Shown one piece after another: positions 1,806 through 61,538 of a stretch of 64,000 bases of DNA; within the stretch, counting starts at the first letter, position 1, and every line of letters begins with the position of its first letter. The stretch spans positions 30,046-94,045 of the forward strand of contig CAZGTC010000001.1 of NCBI GenBank assembly GCA_964528395.1, read 5' to 3'. The translations under genes were made by a program, and so were the position numbers. Under the pieces are notes generated by a model. The model was given only the letters and a program-made list of their open reading frames with translations. It had not been told where the DNA came from and did no database searches. Source of the stretch: an uncultured bacterium (lineage in GTDB: Bacteria > Margulisbacteria > WOR-1 > CAZGTC01).

Positions 1806-2404
1806 TGGCAGATAAAAATTTAAGGCCGGATAAAAAAATTATCGCAAGCCTGATTCCTGCAGGATCTCGGGTTTTGGATCTTGGTTGCGGGGACGGCACG
1901 CTTTTAAAAACTTTGATCGCTGAAAAAAAAGCCTCGGGCATGGGCATAGAAAAAGATCCCGAAGCTTTAAATATCTGCCTATCTAAGGGCTTATCGGTTT
2001 TGCAGGTTGATTTGAATGAAGGCTTGAGCAAATTTGAGGATGGTTTTTTTGATTTTGTAATTTTGAATATGACCCTCCAAGTTATTGATCGTCCGGATAG
2101 ATTGGTGAAAGAAATGGTGCGGGTGGGTAAAAAGGCTATTGTGGGGTTTCCTAATTTTGGGCTTTGGATTTTGAGATTTGGATTTTTATTAAGCGGCCGC
2201 ATGCCAAAATCCCGGACCCTGCCTTATGAATGGTACGATACGCCGAATATCCGGTTAATGACCATCAAGGATTTTCGCGGCCTTTGTAAAGAAGTTAATG
2301 TTAAGATTGAAAAAGAGATTTTTATTGATGACGATGGCAAGCTCATTGCCCCATTTTGGGTTAACTTAAGGGCCGCAGAAGGGGTTTTTCTGCTAGGCCG
2401 GTAG
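1805..2404 (+). CDS. metW: methionine biosynthesis protein MetW
   Basis: 199 aa; methyltransferase-like LDLGCGDGTLL motif; start overlaps metX stop. Confidence 0.85.
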   Translation: MADKNLRPDKKIIASLIPAGSRVLDLGCGDGTLLKTLIAEKKASGMGIEKDPEALNICLSKGLSVLQVDLNEGLSKFEDGFFDFVILNMTLQVIDRPDRLVKEMVRVGKKAIVGFPNFGLWILRFGFLLSGRMPKSRTLPYEWYDTPNIRLMTIKDFRGLCKEVNVKIEKEIFIDDDGKLIAPFWVNLRAAEGVFLLGR

Positions 2405-2458: not shown

Positions 2459-2863
2459 ATGATAAAATTAGCTGAAATGGATCAACAATTTACCGCAACT
2501 TTACAGTCTATATTTAAGGAAAAAAAATGGGTTAAACTGGCTTTTCTTTTTGGTTCCCAATCAAAAGGGAAAAACAGGTCGGAATCGGATTTTGATATTG
2601 CTATTTGGCCAGAAGAGACCGCCAAAGACAAAGATATCAATAATTTATGGTTGGAATTAGAAGAAACGTTAAAAAAATCCGTTGATCTGGTAAACTTATC
2701 TTCAGCTGCGCCTCTGGTTGCCTGGGAAGCCTTTAAAGGGACTCCTATAGATATAAAAGATCAGCGTTTTTATATTAACAAAATGCTTGAGGTTTCTTCT
2801 GAGGCAGAGGATTTTAGTCGGTTTGTTATTGATGTTTGGAAAGCTAGAGAGGCTAAAAAATGA
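2459..2863 (+). CDS. nucleotidyltransferase-domain protein (MNT-type antitoxin)
   Basis: 134 aa; minimal NTase motif GSQSKGKNRSESDFDIAIW; ATGA overlap with the downstream HEPN gene. Confidence 0.7.
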   Translation: MIKLAEMDQQFTATLQSIFKEKKWVKLAFLFGSQSKGKNRSESDFDIAIWPEETAKDKDINNLWLELEETLKKSVDLVNLSSAAPLVAWEAFKGTPIDIKDQRFYINKMLEVSSEAEDFSRFVIDVWKAREAKK

Positions 2864-3291
2864 TTTTTAGTGAAGCAGAAAAAGGAAGCATTTTTACCAG
2901 AATTAGTTTTCTTGAATCAGAATTAAAGGATTTGAGCGAACAAAAAAATATGGATTGGAAAACTTATTTAGAAAATAAGCTGCTTCGAAAAAATGTTGAA
3001 AGAACCATTGAAAATATTGTTAATGCGCTTATTGATATCAGTAAAATTGTTTTGTCGGATAAAGCAGCAGGAGAAATTCCGCAAACTTATGGGGCTGTCA
3101 TATTAAAGCTTTCAGAGCTTAAGATAATTGAGTTTGAGCTTGCGCAACAATTAGCAGAATATGTAAAATTAAGAAATTTTTTGTCGCATCAATATTTAGA
3201 TCTTCGTTGGGATAAGATTAAGGGGTTTTTAAAGGATGCTCCGGAGTCTTTTTCTCTATTTATCCAGCAAATCAAAAAAAATATTCCATAA
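2860..3291 (+). CDS. HepT-like HEPN-domain protein (DUF86-type toxin)
   Basis: 143 aa; Rx4HxY motif (RNFLSHQY) near the C-terminus; coupled to the upstream NTase. Confidence 0.7.
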   Translation: MIFSEAEKGSIFTRISFLESELKDLSEQKNMDWKTYLENKLLRKNVERTIENIVNALIDISKIVLSDKAAGEIPQTYGAVILKLSELKIIEFELAQQLAEYVKLRNFLSHQYLDLRWDKIKGFLKDAPESFSLFIQQIKKNIP

Positions 3292-3332: not shown

Positions 3333-4406
3333 ATGTGGCCTAAATTAATATCGCTTCTTAATAAAATATTTAAGCAATTGCAGCAGGTTGAGCCATTGCC
3401 AAATGAATATGATGTTGTATGGGAAGGGCCGTATTTTATTCCCCAAAAAAAGAAATGGTCCCCTTCGCAATTTTTGTATTATAACGGAATTCTTTATTGT
3501 TCTCTTTTTATTGATTGGGGTACTTATCGTATGGATTGGAAGATAAAAGATAAAAAAATAAATTTTGAAACAGGATCTGGCAGCGGAGGAGATTATTATA
3601 ACAATGAATATCTCTGGGAAAGAGCTTTGACACAGATTTATCAAAGATTAAAAAGCGCTTTGAAGAATCCAGAAAGATATAATCGACACGTAAAACAATA
3701 TTTGCCATTTGCTTGTCAAGAGGGAAAAATTGAGCGCCGTTATACTTGGGATAGAAAAACAAAAAGTATTATTCCTTTTTCAAAAATTCAACACTTAGAA
3801 GATTTGCTAGCTGAAGCAGCTAAGTTGGAATATTTATCTCAAATGACACTTAGAAAATATTTAGAAACTGTTGCTATTACAAAAAATGCAGTGTTTAAAG
3901 GCTTAAAATCTTTATCTCTTGTTGAAAAATACAAGAAGCGAGCAGATACTAGGCATGGAGGCTTGCTTGATCTTCCTATGGATGATGCTGAGGCTTTTAA
4001 AAATTGGTATTGCTCAGGACGTTGGGCAGGATCTCATCCTTGGGAGATTGTTTATGGCCATCCCCATGGGATTATGCTAGCGCCACATCATGATGAAAAA
4101 GGTTGGAAATATATCTTATGGGTGGATTCCCTGGGCTGGTATGATTCGGCTGCTTATATGGCCATTGCTCTTGGAGAGAAGAAAATTTTCTTTGAGTTTC
4201 GCGACTCTCAAGAAATAATATCAGCTTTAAAAGGGGCAGATTTAGTGGAGGTTGGGCCCTTTTTTAGGATGGTTTCGTATGAGGAATTAAAGAGGGAGCG
4301 GCCGGAGGTAATAAAATATATTCAATGGAAACCCCTTTCACAATTTAAACTTATTACTCCAAATCAAAAAGAGCGCTTGCAAAGTATGCTTAAAGGAGTT
4401 TTATGA
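3333..4406 (+). CDS. hypothetical protein
   Basis: 357-aa ORF with ATG start; no family recognised by eye; 4-nt overlap with the next gene. Confidence 0.5.
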   Translation: MWPKLISLLNKIFKQLQQVEPLPNEYDVVWEGPYFIPQKKKWSPSQFLYYNGILYCSLFIDWGTYRMDWKIKDKKINFETGSGSGGDYYNNEYLWERALTQIYQRLKSALKNPERYNRHVKQYLPFACQEGKIERRYTWDRKTKSIIPFSKIQHLEDLLAEAAKLEYLSQMTLRKYLETVAITKNAVFKGLKSLSLVEKYKKRADTRHGGLLDLPMDDAEAFKNWYCSGRWAGSHPWEIVYGHPHGIMLAPHHDEKGWKYILWVDSLGWYDSAAYMAIALGEKKIFFEFRDSQEIISALKGADLVEVGPFFRMVSYEELKRERPEVIKYIQWKPLSQFKLITPNQKERLQSMLKGVL

Positions 4407-4963
4407 ATATTTTAGCTATATTAGGCAGTCCTCGTCGAGGCGGAAATTGTGAAAAGCTGCTGGATCAAGCTATTAAAAGTCAAAAGTCACAAGTTAAAAG
4501 TCACAAGTTAAAAGTCACAAGTTGCAAGAAAATCATTTTAAATGAATTAAATTTTCGGCCGTGCCAAGCGTGTGAAGAGATAAATCAAGACGGCACCTGC
4601 AAGATTCAAGATGATTTCAAGATCATTGAAAAAGCGGTTTTTGAGGCTGACATTATAATTTTGGCTTCACCTATTTATTTTGGTTCAATTTCTGCGCAAA
4701 CAAAAATGATGATTGACCGCTTCCAATGCCTTTGGCGAGCAAAAGAAAAGGGCCAAGTAGTCCCGCCTCTATATCATATAATAATGTTGCGGGATCCCGT
4801 ATGCGGGACAAGGGCCAAGGGCCAAAAAAAAGGATTCTTTATTTGTGTGCAGGCGGGAAATCGGACGGACTTTTTTGATAATGCCAGGGCAATCGTAAAA
4901 AACTTTTTTGCAACTATCGGCGCTTCTTACGAAAAAGAATTATTAGTCCCCAACCGAGAATAA
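4403..4963 (+). CDS. flavodoxin-like NAD(P)H-dependent FMN reductase / iron-sulfur flavoprotein family
   Basis: 186 aa; N-terminal ILGSPRRGGN and ILASPIYFGS flavodoxin-fold signatures; contains an in-frame tandem DNA repeat at ~4483-4530. Confidence 0.65.
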   Translation: MNILAILGSPRRGGNCEKLLDQAIKSQKSQVKSHKLKVTSCKKIILNELNFRPCQACEEINQDGTCKIQDDFKIIEKAVFEADIIILASPIYFGSISAQTKMMIDRFQCLWRAKEKGQVVPPLYHIIMLRDPVCGTRAKGQKKGFFICVQAGNRTDFFDNARAIVKNFFATIGASYEKELLVPNRE

Positions 4964-4977
4964 AGAAACTCTTAAAA

Positions 4978-5150
4978 GCCCTCATCCTAACTTCCCCAAA
5001 CTTGAAAGCTTTCTTTTCTGCAACCTTCTCCCACAGGAGAAGGAATGATTTTTAAACAAAAACTTATTTAGTCCCTCTCCTTTTAGGAGAGGGTTGTTTT
5101 GGAATTAGCTAACACATAAGAGATGTTGGGTGAGGTTTTAGCAGACCCAC
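4978..5150 (+). repeat. MITE-like composite intergenic repeat, copy A
   Basis: Modules ccctcatcct ... ccttctcc-caca-ggagaagg (5024-5043) ... ccctctcc-tttta-ggagaggg (5073-5093) ... gggtgagg (5128-5135); same module order as copies at 20800, 22827 and 61364. Confidence 0.6.
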
Positions 5151-17889: not shown

Positions 17890-18800
17890 GTTTAATAAAA
17901 GACTTAATTATTATTGGGGGAGGGCCGGCGGGAATCACGGCGGCAATCTATGCAGCCCGCAAGCGCTTGAATTTTTGCCTGCTGACGCGGGAAGTGGGGG
18001 GGCAGACTGCTTGGACCAGCAATGTAGAAAATTACACCGGCTACCAAATTATTTCCGGGCCGGATCTGGTGAAAAAATTCTACGACCAGCTAAAAACTTA
18101 TAAAATTGATCTGCGAGAAGGGCAAGAGGTTAAGTCCGTTGGAAAGAATGCTGGTATTTTTACAGTAAAAACTGCAAAAGACGAGGAGCTTCAAACTAAG
18201 ACGATTGTACTGGCTTCGGGCAAATATCCTCGGCGCTTGGGAGTTCCAGGAGAAGCCAAATTTAGCAATAAAGGGGTAGCCATCTGCGCAACTTGCGATG
18301 GCCCGATGTTTGCGGATAAAAATGTGGCGATTATCGGCGGCGGCAATTCCGCCCTGGATGCAGCTTTACAAATGATAAAGATTGCTGCAAAAGTCTATTT
18401 GATTACAGTAAATGATGATTTGAAGGGCGATCCAGTAATGATAGAAAAAGTAAAAACTGCAGAAAATATGGAAATTTTAACCAAAACGAAAACATTGGAA
18501 ATCTTAGGAGATAAGTTTGTTAAAGCCATAAAAATTGAAGAAAAAGGCGGAATTAGAGACTTAGTGGTTGAGGGAATTTTTGTGGAAATTGGCCTTGTGC
18601 CTAATGCGAAATTTATTGATTTTTTGGAAAAAAATGATCAGGGTGAAATTATCGTAAATTGTTTTATGGAAACTTCGGAACCTGGGATTTTTGCAGCTGG
18701 AGATGTTACACAAGTACCGGATAAGCAGATTATTATTGCAGCTGGGGACGGAGCCAAGGCGTGTTTGAGAGCCTTTCGTTACTTGTCAACGCATAGATAA
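17886..18800 (+). CDS. trxB: thioredoxin-disulfide reductase-like FAD/NAD(P) oxidoreductase
   Basis: 304 aa; GGGPAG FAD motif, redox CATCDG, second GGGNSA NAD(P) motif. Confidence 0.75.
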   Translation: MSLIKDLIIIGGGPAGITAAIYAARKRLNFCLLTREVGGQTAWTSNVENYTGYQIISGPDLVKKFYDQLKTYKIDLREGQEVKSVGKNAGIFTVKTAKDEELQTKTIVLASGKYPRRLGVPGEAKFSNKGVAICATCDGPMFADKNVAIIGGGNSALDAALQMIKIAAKVYLITVNDDLKGDPVMIEKVKTAENMEILTKTKTLEILGDKFVKAIKIEEKGGIRDLVVEGIFVEIGLVPNAKFIDFLEKNDQGEIIVNCFMETSEPGIFAAGDVTQVPDKQIIIAAGDGAKACLRAFRYLSTHR

Positions 18801-20799: not shown

Positions 20800-20987
20800 C
20801 CTCACCCAAACCTCACCCTAATCTTTCTTATATGTTAGCGAATTCTAAAACTACCCTCTCCTAAAAGGAGAGGGATTATCTATTTTTCGCTCAAAATTAA
20901 ATCCTTCTCCTGTGGGAGAAGCCTGCCTGCCGGTAGGCAGGGTTGCATGCGAAAAGATTGCTAATAACGAGTAATCAGGATGAGGGT
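20800..20987 (-). repeat. MITE-like composite intergenic repeat, copy B (inverted relative to copy A)
   Basis: cctcaccc ... ccctctcc-taaaa-ggagaggg (20854-20874) ... ccttctcc-tgtggg-agaag (20903-20921) + inserted cctgcctgccggtaggcagg (20922-20941) ... aggatgagg. Confidence 0.6.
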
Positions 20988-21062: not shown

Positions 21063-22094
21063 ATGCTTTTTCGATTGTTTCTCTGTTTGCTCTTGATTAT
21101 TTCTCTTTCTACATCAGTTCTGGCTTGCTGGGGTTTTAGGCCCATGGGCATGGGCGGGGTTTTTGTGGCAGTGGCAGATGATGCAAATATTGCATATTGG
21201 AATCGGGCTGGGGCAGGGCAAATGGATAATTGGAAAGATGGGGAAAAGCAATTTATTTGGACCAGTACGGTTTTGGATAATGTAGGATTTTTTAATCGCA
21301 AAGCTAGGGTAGGAAATACTTATTATGATAGTTTCAATTTTGCCCAAAAGCTTAATCATGATTGGGGATGGACTTTGGCTGGTACTTGGAACGGGGGGGG
21401 ATCTTTTGTTTTGAGCCCAGGATTTGGTTTTCGTTTGCCGGGAGGCGGGGTCATGGATCAAATGTCTTTGGGAATGGGGCTCAATTTTTGGACATTGGAA
21501 GGATATTGGAACAACCTTAAACTTAATCAATTTTATACTCAAATGCATTTAGATTATTTATATAAGATAACCAGTGAATTTAATTTTGGCGTGCATATTG
21601 AAAGGTTTTGGCAAATTTCTACTACGCAATCTTTTCCAGATGATAATGTTGCTGGTTTTCCAAAAACCTTTAGTGGGCAGATTGCTGAAAGCATGAATTT
21701 CCGTCCAGCAATTGCCTGGATGCCGCAAGGGAATTTAAAAGGTTTAATTGTTAATGCAGGTATTTATGATCTGTTTGCACAAGGGGGAGGCCCGCATTAT
21801 TCTTTTGGATTTGAATTTACGCCGCAAGCAGAATTCAAAAAAATTGTAACTGGAAAAGGAAAAGACAAAAAAGTAAAATATGTGGAAGATGATAAAGCTT
21901 GGCTGCAAAATAGCCATTTTAGGGCAGGTATCTATAATATGTTAGGGGCACCGGGGCAACAACATTCAGCTGTTATGCTTGGATATGGGTATGATTTGAA
22001 TAAAGATTTAGAAATTGGAGGCAACGGATACTTTGGTTTTGCAGATTCTTCAGGTGGTTGGAGTATTTCTGGTGGAGTGGCTTGGAAAAATTAA
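21063..22094 (+). CDS. outer-membrane beta-barrel protein (FadL/PorV-like N-terminal motif)
   Basis: 343 aa; signal peptide; GMGGVFVAVADDANIAYWNRAG resembles the FadL-type N-terminal motif; Gly/aromatic-rich; RBS AAGGAG. Confidence 0.5.
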   Translation: MLFRLFLCLLLIISLSTSVLACWGFRPMGMGGVFVAVADDANIAYWNRAGAGQMDNWKDGEKQFIWTSTVLDNVGFFNRKARVGNTYYDSFNFAQKLNHDWGWTLAGTWNGGGSFVLSPGFGFRLPGGGVMDQMSLGMGLNFWTLEGYWNNLKLNQFYTQMHLDYLYKITSEFNFGVHIERFWQISTTQSFPDDNVAGFPKTFSGQIAESMNFRPAIAWMPQGNLKGLIVNAGIYDLFAQGGGPHYSFGFEFTPQAEFKKIVTGKGKDKKVKYVEDDKAWLQNSHFRAGIYNMLGAPGQQHSAVMLGYGYDLNKDLEIGGNGYFGFADSSGGWSISGGVAWKN

Positions 22095-22190: not shown

Positions 22191-22769
22191 ATGAAAAAAA
22201 TAGCAATTTTATTGTCTCTTTTGTTAATTGTAGCTTCTGTAGCTATGGCAGCGCCAAAAGCAACTGCTCCTGCAGCTGCTCCGGCTTATGCTGCATCGGA
22301 TAGGTCAGATATACAAATGGCAGTAACTGCGCGCGGGAATTCCTTTTTGAATAATACGACAGGTGGTTTTACTGGTAGCCCTACGCTAAGAATTGGCCTA
22401 AATAAGGATCAGGCTATGGAATTTGGGTTGAACTATTCTAGCTTGGGTGCTGGAGCATCAACCATGGGATTTATGGGTCGTTTTGAGATGGTTATGGCAA
22501 AAATTGGGGAAGTAAAAGCTTATTGGGCAGCGCAAGCTAGTTATTATACGGATACGAATATTACGGCTGCTAATGCTACTACTTCTACTTTAAGCCTTAT
22601 GGGATTTCTTGGAGCAGAATATATGTTTGCAAGAAACCTATCTATCATAGTAGAACTTATGCCCGCTGCATTTTCTTCTGTTAGCCAAGGCAATGCTAAT
22701 GCTACTCGATTTTATATTCTTAGTAATACGAGTGCCAACTTATACAGTGGCTTGAGATTGTACTTCTAG
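22191..22769 (+). CDS. small outer-membrane beta-barrel protein
   Basis: 192 aa; signal peptide LLIVASVAMAAP; ends in aromatic motif LRLYF; RBS GAGAGGAGGTG. Confidence 0.55.
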   Translation: MKKIAILLSLLLIVASVAMAAPKATAPAAAPAYAASDRSDIQMAVTARGNSFLNNTTGGFTGSPTLRIGLNKDQAMEFGLNYSSLGAGASTMGFMGRFEMVMAKIGEVKAYWAAQASYYTDTNITAANATTSTLSLMGFLGAEYMFARNLSIIVELMPAAFSSVSQGNANATRFYILSNTSANLYSGLRLYF

Positions 22770-22826
22770 TTTTTATATCAAAGGGAGCTTTGTTTGAAAA
22801 AGGCAAAGCTCTCTTTGTTTTATGAC

Positions 22827-22988
22827 CCTCACCCCTACCCCTCTCCCTCGCTACGCTGGGAGAGGGACATTTTGTTATTCGTTGGGTTATAATATGAAAA
22901 TACAAATTTTAGGAGATCCTTCTCCTGAGGGAGAAGGCGGCATAAGATAAATCTTCAAGTTTGAAGGAGTTAGGATGAGGGCAAATCA
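22827..22988 (-). repeat. MITE-like composite intergenic repeat, copy C; terminus overlaps priA RBS and start codon
   Basis: cctcaccc, ccctctcc-ctcgctacgctg-ggagaggg, ccttctcc-tgag-ggagaagg, then gaaggagttaggATGagggcaaatca; the rc of copy D ends in the same taggatgagggcaaatca. Confidence 0.6.
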
Positions 22989-24972
22989 AAAATTTGCAAA
23001 AGTAATTTTATCCAGGGTTTCCGCGGGATTGGATAAGGCTTATGATTACTCGATCCCGCTGGAATTAAAAGAAAAAATTGGGGTGGGGTCTTGGGTAAAA
23101 GTACCTTTTGGCAGTCGTGAATTGGAAGGTTTTGTTATTGATCTGGCAGATGAATCGCAGTTCGCAAAAATTAAACCTATTTCCGCGGTTTTGAGCGATG
23201 TCTTTTATTTTTCTAAAAGAGAAGTTGATCTAGCAAACTGGATAGCAGAATATTATTTTTCTTCTTTTTTTAAAGCCTTGGATCTATTTTTGCCCCCAGC
23301 CCTAGTAAAAAAAAATAAAATCCCAGCCGAAAAATCAGATTTTCTCCTCGCGGCCCAGCCAGCTTTTACCTTAACTTCATCCCAGGAAAAAGCTATTGGT
23401 AAAATTAAAGCAGCTTTACAGGATAAAAAGAGCCAGGTTTTTCTCCTGTGGGGAGTGGCAGGGTCGGGAAAAACCGAAGTTTACCTGCGCCTAGTGGAAG
23501 AAGTATTAAAGCAGGGTAAATCCGTGATTGTTTTGGTGCCGGAAATTATTTTAACTTCGCCAATCGCGGAAAAATTCCAGGCGCGCTTTGGAAATTTGCT
23601 GGCAATTTTGCATTCCAATATGAAAGATACCGAGCGCCGCACAGAGTGGCTGCGTTTAAAACAAGGCGAAGCGCGAATTGCCCTGGGCACGCGCCTGGCG
23701 CTTTTTGCCCCAATTTCTAACCTGGGCATTATCATTATGGATGAAGAATCTGACGGATCCTATAAACAAGACCAAAGCCCGCGCTACCATGGCCGCACAG
23801 TGGCAGAATATATGGCCCAAAGAGAAAAAATTCCTCTAGTTTTAGGTTCTGCTACCCCATCGGTTGAAACTTTTTATCGCGCGAAAAAAAATGAAATCCA
23901 GCTTCTGGCTTTGCCGGAAAAGGTGCAAGATACGCCCCTGCCTAAGATCGAAGTTGTAGATATGCACGAAGAAATAAAAAAAGGCAACCGCACGATTTTT
24001 AGCCGGCAGCTCCGAAAAGCCATGTACCAGGCCTTAGAAAAGAAAAAAAGAATCATTTTATTTACCAGCCGGCGGGGGCATTATACTTTTATCCTTTGCC
24101 GGACCTGCGGAAAACCTTTGAAATGCCCGCATTGCGAGGCTCTTCTAACTTTTCATTCTTTGCGGAAAACTTTGAATTGCCCGCGCTGTTCTTTTAAAAA
24201 ATCCCAAGCCCTGATGTGCCCAAATTGCCAGGGTACGGATATCCGTTATTTGGGTTTGGGCACGCAGAGGATTGAAGACGAGTTAAAAATCTTATTTCCC
24301 AAAGCCAAAAGCGTGCGCTTTGACCGCGAGAGCTTTGAAGTGCGGGATGCGCGCGAAAAATTATACCAAAGTTTTGCCAGCGGCCAGGCAGATATTCTCA
24401 TTGGTACACAGATGGTAGCCAAGGGTTTTGATTTTGAAAAAATTGCCTTGGTGGGGATTCTTTCCGCGGATTTTGCCTTAAACTCCCCGGATTTTCGCTC
24501 CAGCGAGCATACTTTCCAGATTTTAACCCAGGCCGTTGGCCGCTCTGGCCGGCACAAAGATGCAGGGACAGTTATCTTGCAGACTTTTAATCCCGAGCAC
24601 TTTGTGATTAAGTCGCTTCTGGAACATAATTATGAGGTTTTTTGGCAGGAAGAAATTAAGCAGCGCCAAATGCTTAATTTCCCGCCTTTTTCCCATATGG
24701 TCCGCGTGGTTTTTTCCGGGGAAAATGAAGAGAAATTAGAAAAGAACAGCTCGGATTTTGCGCGGCTTTTGGGACAGGGAGAAAAAATTTGCATCCTAGG
24801 TCCTTCGCCAGCCCCAATTCACCGCCTAAAAAATCTTTTCCGCTGGCAAGTAGTTATAACCAGCCAGGATTTACCTTTATTGCACTCAATAATTGCGGCA
24901 ACAATGCAAAAAATGGTAAAATTAAACGGAATTCGAATTATGATTGATGTTGATCCCAGGAGTTTATTATGA
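22975..24972 (+). CDS. priA: primosomal protein N' (replication-restart helicase)
   Basis: 665 aa; Walker A GVAGSGKTEV, DEES box, Cys-rich zinc-binding region. Confidence 0.9.
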   Translation: MRANQKFAKVILSRVSAGLDKAYDYSIPLELKEKIGVGSWVKVPFGSRELEGFVIDLADESQFAKIKPISAVLSDVFYFSKREVDLANWIAEYYFSSFFKALDLFLPPALVKKNKIPAEKSDFLLAAQPAFTLTSSQEKAIGKIKAALQDKKSQVFLLWGVAGSGKTEVYLRLVEEVLKQGKSVIVLVPEIILTSPIAEKFQARFGNLLAILHSNMKDTERRTEWLRLKQGEARIALGTRLALFAPISNLGIIIMDEESDGSYKQDQSPRYHGRTVAEYMAQREKIPLVLGSATPSVETFYRAKKNEIQLLALPEKVQDTPLPKIEVVDMHEEIKKGNRTIFSRQLRKAMYQALEKKKRIILFTSRRGHYTFILCRTCGKPLKCPHCEALLTFHSLRKTLNCPRCSFKKSQALMCPNCQGTDIRYLGLGTQRIEDELKILFPKAKSVRFDRESFEVRDAREKLYQSFASGQADILIGTQMVAKGFDFEKIALVGILSADFALNSPDFRSSEHTFQILTQAVGRSGRHKDAGTVILQTFNPEHFVIKSLLEHNYEVFWQEEIKQRQMLNFPPFSHMVRVVFSGENEEKLEKNSSDFARLLGQGEKICILGPSPAPIHRLKNLFRWQVVITSQDLPLLHSIIAATMQKMVKLNGIRIMIDVDPRSLL

Positions 24973-31163: not shown

Positions 31164-32473
31164 GTAACCGGTCGGGCGAGAAGGTCATAAGGCAAGGCAG
31201 CTAGAACCTTGGCTTTTATGATTTCTCCTGGGTTTATTTTTTTGCCAGTTATTATAACCGAACCATCGATTTCTGGAGCATCCATATATGACCGGCCCAC
31301 GCTGCCTTTAGGAGTGACTTTATCTATTAAAACTTCGATTATTTTCCCGATCATTTTCTTGTTTTTCTCTTCTGAAACCGATTTTTGTAAACTCATTAAG
31401 GTTCTTAATCTTTTTCTCTTTAATGGAGCTGGAACCTGTCCCCTCATCTTATTTGCCAGCGTGCCAGCTTCTCGAGAATATTCAAAAACACCCAATCTTT
31501 CAAACTTCGTCTCTTTAACAAAATTAAAAAGTTCTTCAAAATCTTTTTGCGTTTCCCCTGGGAACCCGACAATTAAAGAAGTCCGAAGAACTATGCCTGG
31601 TATTTCCCTCCTAATTTTTTGAATGAGCCGGATGAGCTTATTTTTGGGCGTTTTACGGCCCATTTTCGATAAAATGTTATCACATATATGCTGGATTGGC
31701 AAGTCAAGATACTTAACGATTTTCTTCTCTTTTGCCATGATTTTTATCAATTCCGGGGTAATATGTTTGGGGTGGGTGTACATGATGCGGATCCATTTTA
31801 TGGCTGGGATTTGGCAAGTTTTTCGCAGTAATTCAACAAATTTTGGATGCTGGGTCGTGTCTTGGGCAACAAAAATGATTTCTTTTACCCCTTGTTTAGC
31901 TAATTGTTTTACTTCAGCGATGACATCGACTAATGGCCGGCTATGATAATTCCCGCGGATTGAGGGAATTAAACAATAAGAACAGCGGTTATTGCACCCA
32001 TCCGCGATTTTGACATAGGCAGTGTGGGGTGGGGTAAGTTTTAAACGCGGAATATTATGAGAAAATAGTATGGCTCCGGACTTAGCTTGGGATTTAGTAA
32101 TTGGGATTTTATTTGGATTTTGGATTTTGACATTGGGATTTTTTAGGAGGTCTAATATCTGTTCTAATTGATTACACCCTAGCCAAACATCAATTTCTTT
32201 TAGAGGAGGTTTTTTTTCACGCTTGGGCAGGCAGCCGATAACTGCCAAAATTTTACAACAGCCGGTTTTTTTGTATTGGCTGTATTTTTTTATGGTTTGA
32301 ATGGATTCTGCAACCGAAGATTTTAAAAATGCGCAAGTATTGATGAGAATAATTTCTGCGAGCTTAGGATTTGTGGTTAAACTAAAACCATTGGTCAATA
32401 ATATTCCCAAAACTGCTTCAGAATCAGTTAGGTTTTTTGGGCAACCCAGGCTTAAAAGATAGATTAAGTTCAC
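31160..32473 (-). CDS. rimO: ribosomal protein S12 methylthiotransferase
   Basis: 437 aa; SLGCPKNLTDSE, radical-SAM CNNRCSYC, C-terminal TRAM; GTG start overlapping doc stop (GTGA); in-frame repeat-derived segment at ~32095-32160. Confidence 0.8.
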   Translation of the reverse strand: MNLIYLLSLGCPKNLTDSEAVLGILLTNGFSLTTNPKLAEIILINTCAFLKSSVAESIQTIKKYSQYKKTGCCKILAVIGCLPKREKKPPLKEIDVWLGCNQLEQILDLLKNPNVKIQNPNKIPITKSQAKSGAILFSHNIPRLKLTPPHTAYVKIADGCNNRCSYCLIPSIRGNYHSRPLVDVIAEVKQLAKQGVKEIIFVAQDTTQHPKFVELLRKTCQIPAIKWIRIMYTHPKHITPELIKIMAKEKKIVKYLDLPIQHICDNILSKMGRKTPKNKLIRLIQKIRREIPGIVLRTSLIVGFPGETQKDFEELFNFVKETKFERLGVFEYSREAGTLANKMRGQVPAPLKRKRLRTLMSLQKSVSEEKNKKMIGKIIEVLIDKVTPKGSVGRSYMDAPEIDGSVIITGKKINPGEIIKAKVLAALPYDLLARPVT

Positions 32474-36513: not shown

Positions 36514-36644
36514 AGCTTTTTTCCTTCTTTTTTCTTATTTCTTGTTACTTATTTCTTAAATATTGCGAAAGACAAGGGGGACTTATTAAGAAACAAGTAA
36601 TAAGCAATAAGTAGCAAGAAAAATATTGCTTTCGCAATATTTTA

Positions 36645-36716
36645 TGGGCCTTGTAGGATTCGAACCTACAACCAATCGGTTATGAGCCGAGTGCTCTACC
36701 CTTGAGCTAAAGGCCC
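36645..36716 (-). tRNA. tRNA with CAT anticodon, elongator type; probably tRNA-Ile2 (lysidine)
   Basis: GGGCCTTTAGCTCAAGGGTAGAGCACTCGGCTCATAACCGATTGGTTGTAGGTTCGAATCCTACAAGGCCCA folds as a cloverleaf; G1:C72 paired so not initiator; tilS is 2 kb away. Confidence 0.8.
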
Positions 36717-36760: not shown

Positions 36761-37687
36761 ATGCTTAATCTAAAAGATAAAATTATTGAACTAAAGAAGA
36801 AAAAAAACGCTGTAATTTTGGCGCATAACTACCAGAATCCAGAGATCCAAGATATTGCGGATTTTACCGGGGATTCTCTCGGTCTTTCGATCAAAGCTTC
36901 TAAAACTAAGGCTGATATTATTTTGTTTTGCGGCGTGCATTTTATGGCAGAAACCGCGGTGCTTGCTTCCCCTTCTAAAAAAGTCATTCTCCCAGATATA
37001 ACTGCCGGATGCCCTATGGCAGATATGATCACCGCAGATGATCTGCGCAAGCTCAAAATCCAAAACCTGCCTGCCGACAGGCACGGTCCAAAATCCAAAG
37101 TAGTTTGCTATGTAAATAGTTCGGCCGAAGTTAAAGCAGAATCTGATATTTGCTGCACCTCGGCCAATTCAGTTGATGTAGTTAATTCGATCAAAGATAC
37201 TGATGAAATAATTTTTGTGCCGGATAAATATTTGGGGATGTATACGCAGAGCAAATGTCCGGATAAAAAATTTATTTTATGGAATGGTTATTGTCCCACC
37301 CACGCTAGAATTTTGCCGGAATATTTAGAAGTAGCAAAGGCCAATCATCCCAAGGCTAAGGTTTTGGTTCATCCGGAATGCCGGCCGGAAGTTATTGCGC
37401 AAGCAGACGAAGTTTTATCCACTGGAGGTATGATAAAATTTGTCCAAAAAGCAGAAGCAAAAGAATTTATTATTGCGACAGAGATCAATATGCTTTATGC
37501 TTTGAAAAAAATTGCCCCGGATAAAATTTTCTATCCAGCCACAGAACTTGCCACTTGTCCGAATATGCGAAAAATTACCCTGGAAAAAGTCATCTGGTCG
37601 CTGGAAGAAGAAAAAACAATTGTTACTGTCCCGCAGGAAATAGCTGTCAGGGCTAAAAGAGCAGTTGACGCAATGCTGAGCATATAA
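36761..37687 (+). CDS. nadA: quinolinate synthase
   Basis: ILAHNYQ, DIADFTGDSL, CPMA, YVNS, CTSAN, HPEC blocks; start set at ATG 36761 (track start is GTG). Confidence 0.85.
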   Translation: MLNLKDKIIELKKKKNAVILAHNYQNPEIQDIADFTGDSLGLSIKASKTKADIILFCGVHFMAETAVLASPSKKVILPDITAGCPMADMITADDLRKLKIQNLPADRHGPKSKVVCYVNSSAEVKAESDICCTSANSVDVVNSIKDTDEIIFVPDKYLGMYTQSKCPDKKFILWNGYCPTHARILPEYLEVAKANHPKAKVLVHPECRPEVIAQADEVLSTGGMIKFVQKAEAKEFIIATEINMLYALKKIAPDKIFYPATELATCPNMRKITLEKVIWSLEEEKTIVTVPQEIAVRAKRAVDAMLSI

Positions 37688-37803
37688 ATCCCAATTAACC
37701 AAATCCAAATATCAAATAAAATCCCAATGACCAATAATCCAATTAGAAATTTGTGAATTGGATGATTTATTTGTCATTTGCTAATTGGGATTTTGGATTT
37801 TTC
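37686..37803. repeat. inverted-repeat element (ggatttt family) filling the nadA / response-regulator convergent spacer; possible bidirectional terminator
   Basis: Left arm aaatcccaattaaccaaatccaaat, right arm attgggattttggattttt; internal hairpin tccaatt-N11-aattgga followed by a T-rich run. Confidence 0.45.
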
Positions 37804-38390: not shown

Positions 38391-38464
38391 GGCTGGGTAG
38401 CTCAGCTGGTTAGAGCAAACGGCTCATACCCGTTGTGTCGGCAGTTCGAATCTGCCCCCAGCCA
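38391..38464 (+). tRNA. tRNA-Met (CAT), elongator type
   Basis: GGCTGGGTAGCTCAGCTGGTTAGAGCAAACGGCTCATACCCGTTGTGTCGGCAGTTCGAATCTGCCCCCAGCCA; canonical arms; G1:C72 paired. Confidence 0.8.
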
Positions 38465-59952: not shown

Positions 59953-61362
59953 ATGCTGCATCATTTGAAAAAAACTGTTTCGCATGACCGCATTTTTGTG
60001 CCGGTTTTGGTTTTGCTCTGTGGTTTTCTCTTCTTTTTTAATTTAGGCGGGCTTTCTTTAATTGAGACCGATGAATTTATTTACACCCACATTGCCCGCG
60101 AAATACTTTCAACTGGTGATTTTCTCACCCTGCATTTAAAAGGCCAAAATTGGTTCATGCATCCGCCGCTTTTCATGTGGATTTCCGCATTTTTTATTTA
60201 TTTTTTGGGGTTGAGCGAATTTAGCGCGCGCATAGCCAGTGCTTTTTTTGGCTTAGGCGGGGTTTTGGCAGTTTATTATTTGGGCAAGAACATGTTTTCC
60301 AAGCGCGATGGGTTTATTGCTGCCATTGTTTTAGCCAGCAGCCTGCAATATATAGTCCAGTCCCGTATTGCACTTTTTGACGGAGCCTTGGTTTGTTTTA
60401 TGACGCTTTCAATTTTATTTTTCTGGCTGGGGTACAAAAGGCAGCAGAGTAATTTTTACCTTTTATCTTCTCTTTGCATGGGTCTTGGCACCTTGACTAA
60501 GGGCCCAGTGGCTGCGCTTTTGCCGCTTTTGATCATTGTTCCTTTTATATTATTGCAGGGGACCTGGCGCCAGGTTTTAAAAGATGCCCAACTGCGATTA
60601 TCTATTCCTATATATATAGCAGTGGGGTGGTGGTGGTATTTATTGAGCTTTCTCCTGCATGGACAAGTATTTTTTAACGAAGTCATCATCCATTACCATG
60701 TTTTTCGCTATTTTGGGGTAATTGACCATACCGGGCCATGGTATTATTATTTTGTGGTAGTGGCAGCAGGATTTTTGCCCTGGATAATTTTTCTTATCCC
60801 AGCGCTTTTCTTTTTATTCCAAAAAAAATTCCGGGCAGAAGAGCAATTTCTTTTGCTAGGCATTGTTATAACTTTTGTTTTCTTTTCTCTGGCGCAGACC
60901 AAGCTGCCGGGATATATTTTAGGGCTTTATCCTTTTCTTGCCTTGGGGGTGGGGAAATTTATCAATGACCGCATAAATAACTTATGGATGCGCTACTTTT
61001 TTGTTTCTCTAGTGCTTTTTATGTGCTTGCTGATTGCTTTTCTCATGATTTATGTTGCTCCCCAAGTAGATGACGCCCGGCCCTACAAAAGCCTTTCTTT
61101 AAGGGCCAATGAACTGGTCCATTCGGATGATTTTGTGGGGGGCTACCAGCTTTACCAATTGGGATTTGATTATTATGTGATCCATCCGATTGTCTGGTTT
61201 GAAACACCTGCCAAAGCAGCTGAATCTTTGGCAAATACGAACCAGAGAATTTTTATTCTTGTACCCAAGTCAGAATTTGAAAATTTCGCCAGCCATTTTT
61301 CTTATCTTTTTTATGTCCTAGATGAAAAAGCCGGAGTTTTGATCATCAGCAACCAGCTTTAG
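59953..61362 (+). CDS. membrane GT-C glycosyltransferase (ArnT / PMT family, GT39/GT83-like)
   Basis: 469 aa; multi-TM; N-terminal DE-containing loop (IETDEFIYTHIA) typical of GT-C enzymes. Confidence 0.6.
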   Translation: MLHHLKKTVSHDRIFVPVLVLLCGFLFFFNLGGLSLIETDEFIYTHIAREILSTGDFLTLHLKGQNWFMHPPLFMWISAFFIYFLGLSEFSARIASAFFGLGGVLAVYYLGKNMFSKRDGFIAAIVLASSLQYIVQSRIALFDGALVCFMTLSILFFWLGYKRQQSNFYLLSSLCMGLGTLTKGPVAALLPLLIIVPFILLQGTWRQVLKDAQLRLSIPIYIAVGWWWYLLSFLLHGQVFFNEVIIHYHVFRYFGVIDHTGPWYYYFVVVAAGFLPWIIFLIPALFFLFQKKFRAEEQFLLLGIVITFVFFSLAQTKLPGYILGLYPFLALGVGKFINDRINNLWMRYFFVSLVLFMCLLIAFLMIYVAPQVDDARPYKSLSLRANELVHSDDFVGGYQLYQLGFDYYVIHPIVWFETPAKAAESLANTNQRIFILVPKSEFENFASHFSYLFYVLDEKAGVLIISNQL

Positions 61363-61363
61363 C

Positions 61364-61538
61364 TGATTTGCCCTCATCCTAGCTACTTTAAATTTGAGAA
61401 TTATTCTTATGCAACCTTCTCCCTCAGGAGAAGGATATAATTTTATGCGAAGATCAATTAACCCCTCTCCCAGTGTAACGCGGGAGAGGGTAGCATGAGA
61501 ACAGTAGGCATCTTAGAAAAATTTGGGTGAGGGTGAGG
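61364..61538 (+). repeat. MITE-like composite intergenic repeat, copy D
   Basis: tgatttgccctcatcct ... ccttctcc-ctca-ggagaagg ... ccctctcc-cagtgtaacgcg-ggagaggg ... gggtgagggtgagg. Confidence 0.6.

What the first reader, a model, noticed from the sequence alone, without database searches (positions are those of the whole stretch)
22960..22990. Repeat terminus supplies the RBS and ATG of priA
The end of repeat copy C reads gaaggagttaggATGagggcaaatca and the ATG is the only in-frame start for priA (MRANQKFAKV...). The reverse complement of copy D ends in the identical taggatgagggcaaatca, so the first five priA codons (MRANQ) appear to be repeat-derived. Copy A has a variant of the same terminus (ggggaagttaggatgagggc). 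This suggests the element can donate a translation-initiation region to an essential gene.
Basis: seen in the sequence. Interest (0 to 1): 0.55.

Follow-up and report, generated by a model that had tools for sequence, protein, structure and literature searches.

The report
Triplex-motif repeat supplies priA start codon
In an uncultured Margulisbacteria-type bacterium, the start codon and first residues of the replication-restart helicase PriA come from the end of a dispersed BoxC/"triplex-motif" repeat, a tidy but single example of a repeat being co-opted as a gene start.

Summary
priA (22975..24972) starts at an ATG inside AGGATGAGGG, a 10-mer present at the same end of all four repeat copies in the window (4 found, 0.05 expected). 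Copies C and D are identical over 18 nt.

The repeat is not a new element. [quoted passage not shown] The ATG lies in the third-strand segment GGATGAGG. That segment follows the CCTTCTCC/GGAGAAGG hairpin in 96 of 113 cases in unrelated phyla.

Thirty of 34 phylum-level PriA orthologs start M-[F/Y/I]-A-[E/Q/H]-V. The window protein starts MRANQK-FAKV, a 5-residue extension with Lys where the ancestral Met sat.

The only close relative (85 % identity) has the same start. Its SD-ATG block is 21/21 identical and its promoter block 34/34 identical, yet it has lost both hairpins. So the co-option predates that species split and is under selection.

In distant relatives priA follows coaBC. Here the repeat sits at a synteny break.

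- The AAGGAG Shine-Dalgarno is specific to copy C, not a family feature.
- No other copy starts a gene.

Repeats that carry an RBS and ATG are already known (Neisseria REP2). Interest is moderate.

The parts
22779..22825 (+). Intrinsic-terminator-like hairpin plus T-run of the upstream porin-like gene (22191..22769). It marks the left border of native DNA before repeat copy C.
   Evidence: 17-pair stem, TTTTAT tail. Conserved in L002.
22826..22835 (+). Copy C left motif CCCTCACCCC. On the minus strand this reads GGGTGAGG, the third-strand segment of triplex unit 1. It is also 7/8 complementary to the right motif.
   Evidence: rule 8/8, 4-nt spacer. Retained in L002.
22839..22866 (+). Copy C hairpin 1: CCCTCTCCC-TCGCTACGCT-GGGAGAGGG. 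Absent from L002.
22864..22893 (+). Promoter-like site GGGACA-18 nt-TATAAT. The -35 hexamer overlaps the 3' arm of hairpin 1. The -10 lies in a 34-nt block that is 100 % identical in L002.
   Evidence: 10/12 matches.
22918..22937 (+). Copy C hairpin 2: CCTTCTCC-TGAG-GGAGAAGG. Absent from L002.
   Evidence: The same hairpin occurs in many phyla.
22963..22969 (+). Shine-Dalgarno GAAGGAG, 5 nt before the ATG. It lies inside the hairpin-2-to-third-strand spacer of the repeat. The sequence is specific to copy C and L002.
22972..22981 (+). Right motif AGGATGAGGG. It contains the third-strand segment GGATGAGG of triplex unit 2 and the priA ATG (22975-22977).
22982..22988 (+). CAAATCA, shared only with copy D. 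It covers the last base of codon 3, codon 4 and the first two bases of codon 5 of priA.
   Evidence: Not shared by A, B or L125.
22990..22992 (+). Codon 6, AAA (Lys; AAT Asn in L002), at the position of the ancestral Met start codon.
22975..24972 (+). priA (665 aa), followed by def and fmt.
4978..5135 (-). Repeat copy A. Its right motif lies 14 nt after the stop codon of a convergent FMN-reductase-like gene (4403..4963). Its ATG opens only a 23-codon ORF.
20800..20986 (+). Repeat copy B. It has a duplicated left motif and an extra GC hairpin at 20922-20941. Its right motif lies 77 nt upstream of the porin-like gene 21063..22094.
61364..61538 (-). Repeat copy D. Its right end lies 1 nt after the TAG stop of a convergent PMT/GT39-type glycosyltransferase gene (59953..61362). 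Its ATG opens a 19-codon ORF.

Best explanation
[quoted passage not shown] Unit 1, on the antisense strand, is CCCTCTCC-loop-GGAGAGGG-spacer-GGGTGAGG. Unit 2, on the sense strand, is CCTTCTCC-TGNG-GGAGAAGG-spacer-GGATGAGG.

In the ancestor of the window organism and its sister species, priA was separated from its ancestral upstream partner coaBC. A copy of this repeat came to lie directly in front of priA. Which event came first is inferred, not shown.

The third-strand segment GGATGAGG contains an ATG that is in frame with priA and 15 nt upstream of the ancestral start. Together with an AAGGAG Shine-Dalgarno in the adjacent repeat spacer and a TATAAT promoter between the two hairpins, this ATG became the working start. 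That added MRA(N/D)Q to PriA, and the old Met codon then decayed to Lys/Asn.

Shown: the repeat's identity, the position of the ATG in the motif, the N-terminal extension, the synteny break, and conservation in the sister species. Inferred: that the ATG is the start actually used, the order of events, and that the promoter-like site is the promoter.
For: - Motif identity: the triplex rule is satisfied 8/8 in 7 of 8 units. The same four-motif architecture occurs in Cyanobacteria, Anaerolineae, Verrucomicrobia and Desulfobulbaceae. In other genomes 96/113 hairpin-2 sites are followed by a compliant third strand, 93 of them exactly GGATGAGG, against controls of 1 and 3. The octamers match E. coli TM_ECO/BoxC.
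- N-terminal extension: 30/34 orthologs start M-[FYI]-A-[EQH]-V, while the window starts MRANQK-FAKV.
- Sister species L002: same MRADQN start. The SD-ATG block is 21/21 identical and the promoter block 34/34 identical, against 73 % third-position identity in priA and 75 % nt identity in the upstream gene. No other in-frame start is conserved.
- Synteny: distant relatives have coaBC-priA-def(-fmt), with the priA ATG 4 nt after the coaBC stop in L122. The window has porin-like gene - repeat - priA - def - fmt, and coaBC is absent from the window.
- Gene callers in public data use the same start (P0001 and P0002).
- The predicted 5'-UTR leaves the ATG unpaired. Purine-motif triplexes do not form in RNA (Holder 2015).
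Against: - There is no expression, proteomic or ribosome-profiling data, so the start is inferred from sequence only.
- Only one close relative exists. No genome shows the 'empty' intermediate (porin gene next to priA without the repeat).
- The SD and the -10 element are not shared by copies A, B or D, so part of the initiation region may be native or later-evolved DNA rather than donated.
- The ~35-nt spacers fall outside the 1-6-nt loop definition used for TM motifs, so triplex formation by these copies is unproven.
- Only 4 copies from this genome could be examined, so a genome-wide tendency cannot be assessed.
Confidence: 0.8

Rival explanations
1. Capture in the opposite direction. The AGGATGAGGGCAAATCA sequence was native priA leader and coding DNA, and it was copied into the repeat family (for example, copy D derived from C). 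On this view priA donated sequence to the repeat, not the reverse.
For: C and D are identical for 7 nt beyond the canonical motif end, whereas A, B and L125 diverge there. So at least CAAATCA could be flanking DNA carried along.
Against: GGATGAGG follows the CCTTCTCC/GGAGAAGG hairpin in 93 of 113 sites in unrelated phyla that have nothing to do with priA. It obeys the triplex rule relative to that hairpin. PriA orthologs lack the extension. Copy D lacks the promoter-bearing insertion of C/L002 and has the 35-nt left spacer that C lacks, so it is not a simple copy of C.
Confidence: 0.07
2. The motif ATG is not the functional start. PriA would be translated from a downstream or non-canonical codon, and the overlap with the repeat would be incidental.
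For: There is no experimental start-site evidence. The extension residues change between the two species (N4D, K6N), so they are not individually constrained.
Against: The ancestral Met position is AAA/AAT. ATT-11 and TTG-19 are not conserved in L002. The next shared candidates (codons 27-37) lie beyond the conserved FAKV...YDYSIP part of the 3'-DNA-binding domain. The SD-ATG block is 21/21 conserved, with canonical 5-nt spacing.
Confidence: 0.06
3. The element is a transposase-mobilised MITE or REP/REPIN-type element whose terminal inverted repeats happen to resemble triplex motifs. It would have inserted upstream of priA by transposition.
For: Left and right motifs are 7/8 complementary, like TIRs, and the element is 160-190 nt long. 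In Nostoc, Calothrix and Pseudanabaena the compact core sits inside larger lineage-specific inverted repeats. Short-read contigs break inside copies, which suggests many copies.
Against: No target-site duplications are visible at any of the 4 copies. No transposase was noticed next to any copy. Holder 2015 found no association of TMs with mobile elements. The third-strand rule is met far beyond what a TIR explanation requires. This rival changes how the repeat arrived, not whether it supplies the start.
Confidence: 0.15

Closest known systems
[quoted passage not shown] E. coli TM_ECO; Holder et al. 2015, PMC4666352; Hoyne/Maher 2000 as cited there)
   Same: - Pyrimidine arm, loop, purine arm and G/T/A third strand obey the purine-motif rule.
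- Near-identical octamers (CCCTCTCC / GGAGAGGG / GGGTGAGG).
- Inverted-tandem pairing of two motif types.
- Intergenic, multi-copy, and found in many phyla.
- Small deletions between close relatives that remove parts of the palindrome, as seen between the window and L002.
   Different: - The spacer between hairpin and third strand is 34-36 nt (55 in copy B) instead of 1-6 nt.
- The second unit is the GGAGAAGG/GGATGAGG type.
- One copy overlaps a start codon and carries a promoter-like site and an SD, whereas TM_ECO was reported as always intergenic, 10-310 nt from ORFs, and without promoter or terminator activity.
Neisseria REP2 repeats and Borrelia IR sequences (Morelle 2003 and Dunn 1994, as reviewed by Delihas 2011, PMC3184786)
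   Same: [quoted passage not shown]
   Different: In REP2 these signals are family-wide and serve many genes (14 in N. meningitidis Z2491). Here only one of four copies serves a gene, and the SD and -10 are copy-specific. No sequence relationship was tested.
In-frame fusion of small repeats with coding sequences (Rickettsia RPE, ERIC/BOX-type and other MITE fusions; Delihas 2011, PMC3184786)
   Same: Repeat-derived nucleotides become part of a protein-coding sequence without destroying function.
   Different: The cases highlighted in that review are internal insertions or 3'-terminal extensions. Here it is a 5' extension that replaces the start codon.

Membership tests
BoxC/PIT/TM intrastrand triplex motif | Three blocks on one strand: a pyrimidine arm, a complementary purine arm, and a third strand antiparallel to the purine arm with G*G, A*A or T*A triplets. 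| tested here: met
   8/8 triplets for unit 1 in A, B, C and D, and for unit 2 in A, C and D. The purine arm of B unit 2 has one mismatch (GGAGAAGC).
BoxC/PIT/TM intrastrand triplex motif | Short loops between blocks (1-6 nt in the ITxF definition of Holder 2015). | tested here: not met
   Loop 2 is 34-36 nt (A, D, C unit 2), 55 nt (B unit 2), and 4 nt only in C unit 1. Loop 1 is 4-5 nt, or 10-12 nt in C/D hairpin 1. Heterologous units show spacers of 0-42 nt.
BoxC/PIT/TM intrastrand triplex motif | Sequence relationship to the conserved G/C-rich TM of other bacteria. | tested here: met
   The octamers match TM_ECO. The same order of four motifs occurs in ~18 loci of other phyla. In 93/113 sites GGATGAGG follows hairpin 2.
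BoxC/PIT/TM intrastrand triplex motif | Inverted-tandem configuration that combines two motif types. | tested here: met
   Every window copy pairs a GGAGAGGG/GGGTGAGG unit (antisense) with a GGAGAAGG/GGATGAGG unit (sense). Holder 2015 reports A+B pairs in E. coli.
BoxC/PIT/TM intrastrand triplex motif | Actual formation of an intrastrand triplex. | not testable with these tools
   This needs CD/NMR on oligonucleotides carrying the 35-nt loop. Holder 2015 saw a triplex only in isolated single strands, not in vivo.
REP2-type expression-cassette repeats | Promoter, RBS and ATG are part of the repeat consensus, and copies sit immediately upstream of many genes. | tested here: not met
   Only the ATG is common to all copies. 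The SD and TATAAT are unique to C/L002. A and D abut 3' ends of convergent genes, and B is 77 nt from a gene start.
MITE | Terminal inverted repeats plus target-site duplications. | tested here: inconclusive
   TIR-like ends are 7/8 complementary. No direct repeats are visible at the flanks of A-D. Four copies are too few to be decisive.
REP/REPIN-RAYT | A conserved 5' tetranucleotide next to the hairpin and a cognate RAYT gene flanked by the repeats. | not tested
   No systematic search for RAYT/IS200-type genes was made in the window, and the whole genome was not available.

The most novel reading that the evidence does not exclude
BoxC/TM-type triplex repeats may be more than passive instability hot-spots. 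Their purine arms mimic Shine-Dalgarno sequences and their conserved third strand always contains (A/G)TG-AGG. So they could act as latent, portable translation-start modules that both promote rearrangements and rescue expression of the genes they strand. priA would then be the first documented case. The near-invariance of GGATGAGG (93/96, although the triplex rule allows 8 variants) would reflect selection on something other than triplex formation.
Probability: 0.12. Interest if true: 0.65.

Novelty: new variant of a known kind. Interest (0 to 1): 0.38.

Why it matters
This gives a function-relevant consequence to a repeat class (BoxC/PIT/TM) that has been known for about 30 years without any demonstrated role and was described as strictly intergenic. 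One copy provides the start codon, and probably the promoter/RBS context, of a core replication-restart gene after a synteny break. The arrangement has been kept under selection through a speciation.

It also matters for annotation. The MRA... N-terminus of PriA in this lineage is genuine rather than a mis-called start. The 'LTPTPLP...PSPEGEG'-type small ORFs across these repeats are artefacts.

The scope is limited: one locus, in uncultured organisms, and the general principle (repeats that carry an RBS and ATG) is already established for Neisseria REP2.

Tried and rejected
- Rfam, gathering threshold on the window and E-value mode on three heterologous loci: only tRNAs and sub-threshold hairpin noise, so there is no known RNA family.
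A genome-wide census of copies was therefore impossible, but the scan revealed the cross-phylum architecture.
- Metagenome scan for the long-spacer variant: one hit only (L125).
- Extending the window by 10 kb to the right and 4 kb to the left through edge genes: no additional copies. One look-up failed because of a wrong start choice.
- RNA folding of the 5'-UTR and of the whole element: z-scores of only about -2 and no sequestration of the ATG, so I dropped a riboregulator reading. Two fold calls failed on size or format limits.
- Ribozyme (hammerhead-like GAUGAG) idea: rejected, because the core CUGAUGA/GAAA elements are absent.
- Other ORFs of at least 100 aa starting at the motif ATG in other genomes: Arg-rich, no Pfam hits, judged spurious.
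- Literature search for MITE-donated start codons by keyword returned mostly plant papers. The useful precedents came from Delihas 2011.
Full report
**1. Observation**

The window sequence at 22960-22990 is tttGAAGGAGttaggATGagggcaaatcaaaa. The ATG at 22975 follows an in-frame TAA (22948-22950) and opens a 665-aa ORF. That ORF carries the PriA 3'-DNA-binding, DEAD/ResIII helicase and PriA_C domains and is followed by def and fmt.

The 18-mer TAGGATGAGGGCAAATCA occurs exactly twice, at the priA start and in reverse orientation at 61364-61381, against 0.09 expected. The 10-mer AGGATGAGGG occurs four times against 0.05 expected. Each occurrence lies at the same end of one of four copies of a 160-190-nt repeat:
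- A: 4978-5135, minus strand.
- B: 20800-20986, plus strand.
- C: 22826-22988, plus strand.
- D: 61364-61538, minus strand.

**2. What the repeat is**

All copies share one layout:
- a left motif CCTCACCC;
- hairpin 1, CCCTCTCC-loop-GGAGAGGG;
- a spacer;
- hairpin 2, CCTTCTCC-TGNG-GGAGAAGG;
- a ~35-nt spacer;
- the right motif AGGATGAGGG.

In about 18 of those loci the same four motifs occur in the same order, in a compact ~95-nt form. An example is gcCCTCACCCccagcCCCTCTCCcaaagGGAGAGGG...CCTTCTCCTGCGGGAGAAGGggttaggGGATGAGGGc.

A literature search on the octamers led to Holder et al. 2015 (PMC4666352). Its E. coli 'TM_ECO' motifs are CCCTCTCCC-loop-GGGAGAGGG-TTAG-GGTGAGGG. These were formerly called BoxC or PIT elements. 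They are potential purine-motif intrastrand triplexes, present in more than 260 genomes and especially in Enterobacteria and Cyanobacteria. They are often arranged as inverted pairs of two types.

I tested the triplex rule directly: the third strand must run antiparallel to the purine arm, with G*G, A*A or T*A triplets.
- GGGTGAGG matches GGAGAGGG 8/8.
- GGATGAGG matches GGAGAAGG 8/8.
- This holds in 7 of the 8 units in the window. Copy B's hairpin 2 has one stem mismatch.

Among 113 hairpin-2 sites in unrelated genomes, 96 have a compliant third strand within 60 nt downstream. The controls give 1 (upstream side) and 3 (shuffled). In 93 of the 96 the sequence is exactly GGATGAGG. Spacers range from 0 to 42 nt.

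So the repeat is an inverted tandem of two TM units. It differs from the published definition mainly in its long spacers: 34-36 nt, 55 nt in B, and 4 nt only in C unit 1. One further long-spacer copy exists in JGI metagenomes (L125, intergenic). Rfam has no family for the motif.

The consequence for the finding is direct. The priA ATG is the A*A / T*A / G*G part of a conserved third-strand segment. It is not a chance trinucleotide.

**3. Is the ATG the priA start, and is it derived?**

The organism belongs to the Margulisbacteria/Saganbacteria group, judging by the source names of the PriA homologs. Of the 34 nearest phylum-level orthologs (41-45 % identity), 30 begin directly M-[F/Y/I]-A-[E/Q/H]-[V/I/L]. 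The other four have longer called N-termini that still contain the same [M/T]-[F/Y]-A-E-V sequence.

The window protein begins MRANQK-FAKV. That is five extra residues, and Lys (AAA, 22990-22992) sits where the ancestral Met would be.

The only close relative is P0002/L002, with 85.5 % amino-acid and 84.8 % nucleotide identity. It begins MRADQN-FAKV. In both species the motif ATG is the only conserved in-frame start in the first 26 codons. The window's ATT-11 and TTG-19 are GTT and TTA in L002. Later candidates lie beyond the conserved FAKV...YDYSIP segment that aligns with solved PriA N-terminal domains.

The block TGAAGGAGTTAGGATGAGGGC is 21/21 identical between the two species. A 34-nt block containing TATAAT is 34/34 identical. 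By comparison, priA third codon positions are 73 % identical and the upstream gene is 75 % identical at the nucleotide level. This argues for purifying selection on a promoter, an SD and this start codon.

Signals and folding:
- The SD (GAAGGAG, 22963-22969) sits 5 nt from the ATG.
- A GGGACA-18-TATAAT promoter-like site (22864-22893) draws its -35 from the 3' arm of hairpin 1.
- In the predicted 5'-UTR, hairpin 2 forms and the ATG is unpaired. The z-score is about -2, so I attach no regulatory claim to the fold.
- According to Holder 2015, purine-motif triplexes do not form in RNA. The motif should therefore not occlude the start on the mRNA.

**4. History of the locus**

In three more distant relatives the order is coaBC-priA-def(-fmt). 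In L122 the priA ATG lies 4 nt after the coaBC stop. In the window and in L002 the downstream side (def, fmt, ferredoxin, YmdB) is conserved. Upstream, however, lie two porin-like genes without Pfam matches, and coaBC is absent from the 64-kb window. The repeat therefore sits exactly at a synteny breakpoint. This fits the association of TM motifs with local rearrangement reported by Holder 2015.

L002 retains the left motif, part of the left spacer, the promoter block and the SD-ATG block. It lacks hairpin 1, hairpin 2 and most of the right spacer. The missing segments are bounded by short direct repeats (AGGAG...AGGAG; TGTTA-like). This is the kind of small deletion within palindromic TM pairs that Holder 2015 described.

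Two things follow:
- The full element was already upstream of priA in the common ancestor.
- The hairpins are dispensable for priA expression, whereas the start block is not.

**5.

- The SD is inside the repeat's spacer, but AAGGAG is unique to C/L002. A has GGGGAAG, D has AAAGTAG and B has CGAGTAA. It looks like local adaptation rather than a donated RBS. The -10 element lies in a segment the other copies lack.
- Codons 1-2 and two bases of codon 3 are motif-derived with high confidence. Codons 3-5 rest only on the 7-nt identity with copy D. My own estimate of the chance of that identity is about 1e-4 per pair at this base composition. A, B and L125 diverge immediately after GGGC/GGGT.
- The ATG serves no gene elsewhere:
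  - A and D point into the 3' ends of convergent genes, 14 nt and 1 nt after the stop codons.
  - B is 77 nt from the next start.
  - In 137 heterologous sites the ORF from the motif ATG has a median of 18 codons. The few ORFs of 100 codons or more have no family matches and look compositional.
- From my own knowledge, priA is important but not strictly essential in E. coli or B. subtilis.

**6. Comparison with what is known, and novelty**

The repeat is a long-spacer variant of the BoxC/PIT/TM class. Repeats that carry a promoter, an RBS and an ATG, have two internal stem-loops, and sit immediately upstream of genes are documented for Neisseria REP2 and Borrelia IR sequences. In-frame fusion of small repeats with ORFs is also known (Delihas 2011, PMC3184786).

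What appears not to have been described is a TM-class element overlapping and supplying a start codon. TM_ECO was reported as always intergenic, 10-310 nt from ORFs, and PIT elements as lacking promoter or terminator activity. I therefore rate this a new variant of a known kind. It is well supported by comparative sequence evidence, but it is a single locus in uncultured organisms.

**7. Limits**

- There is no experimental evidence for the start site.
- Only four copies from this genome could be examined. Short-read contigs L001 and L126 begin inside copies B and D, which hints at many more copies.
- Only one close relative is available.
- Triplex formation across 35-nt loops is untested.
- How the repeat spreads is unknown, here as in the literature.

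Noticed in passing
L003-L121 (e.g. L007 6180-6440, L038 4100-4360, L072 1290-1640): The hairpin-2 + GGATGAGG unit is conserved across phyla with almost no variation in the third strand (93/96 exactly GGATGAGG, although the triplex rule allows 8 variants). In Nostoc and Calothrix the compact two-unit core is nested inside a larger inverted repeat (GTGTCAACTTAAC...GTTAAGTTGACAC), and in Pseudanabaena inside a different one. In Clostridia an extra small hairpin sits between hairpin 2 and the third strand (spacer 16-17 nt).
   Followed up: partly
L123 1390-1500: Another Margulisbacteria genome has a different triplex-type motif (CCCCTTCCCCC-ttattaa-GGGGGAAGGGG-agaaga-GGGGTTAGGGG) in the 330-nt coaBC-priA spacer. 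It does not touch the normal MIAEV start.
   Followed up: no
L001 position 1 and L126 position 1 (window ~20846 and ~61505): Short-read Logan contigs of the same organism begin inside repeat copies B and D. This suggests the repeat is abundant enough genome-wide to break assemblies.
   Followed up: no
window 20922-20941: Copy B carries an additional GC-rich hairpin (CCTGCCT-GCCGGT-AGGCAGG) inserted right after hairpin 2, and a duplicated left motif (CCTCACCC at 20800 and 20811). Copy D also has an overlapping duplicated left motif.
   Followed up: no
window 4915-4986 (minus strand): The motif ATG of copy A opens a 23-codon ORF, MRAFKSFFILGWGLIILFRKKRR, with a hydrophobic core and a basic tail. 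It runs antisense to the 3' end of the FMN-reductase-like gene. It is probably fortuitous.
   Followed up: no
window 22822-22950 (+): A 42-codon ORF (MTLTPTPLPRYAGRGTF...DPSPEGEGGIR) is simply the translation of the triplex repeat. ORFs of this type are likely annotation artefacts wherever these repeats occur.
   Followed up: no
window 2156-2187, 32094-32145, 37683-37800, 42077-42112: An unrelated AT-rich repeat family (TTTGGATTTTGGATTTTGA...ATTGGGATTT) occurs in direct and inverted copies, some near the two tRNA genes (36645-36716, 38391-38464). A second family (AAGTAATAAGAAATAAGTA) occurs at 18800, 34705 and 36528-36621.
   Followed up: no
window 2459-3291 (+): Adjacent small genes with Polbeta/NTP_transf_2 and HepT-like domains (per the L128 gene table), i.e. 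an MNT-HepT-type toxin-antitoxin pair. Fic-domain genes are also present nearby (L001, L126 tables).
   Followed up: no
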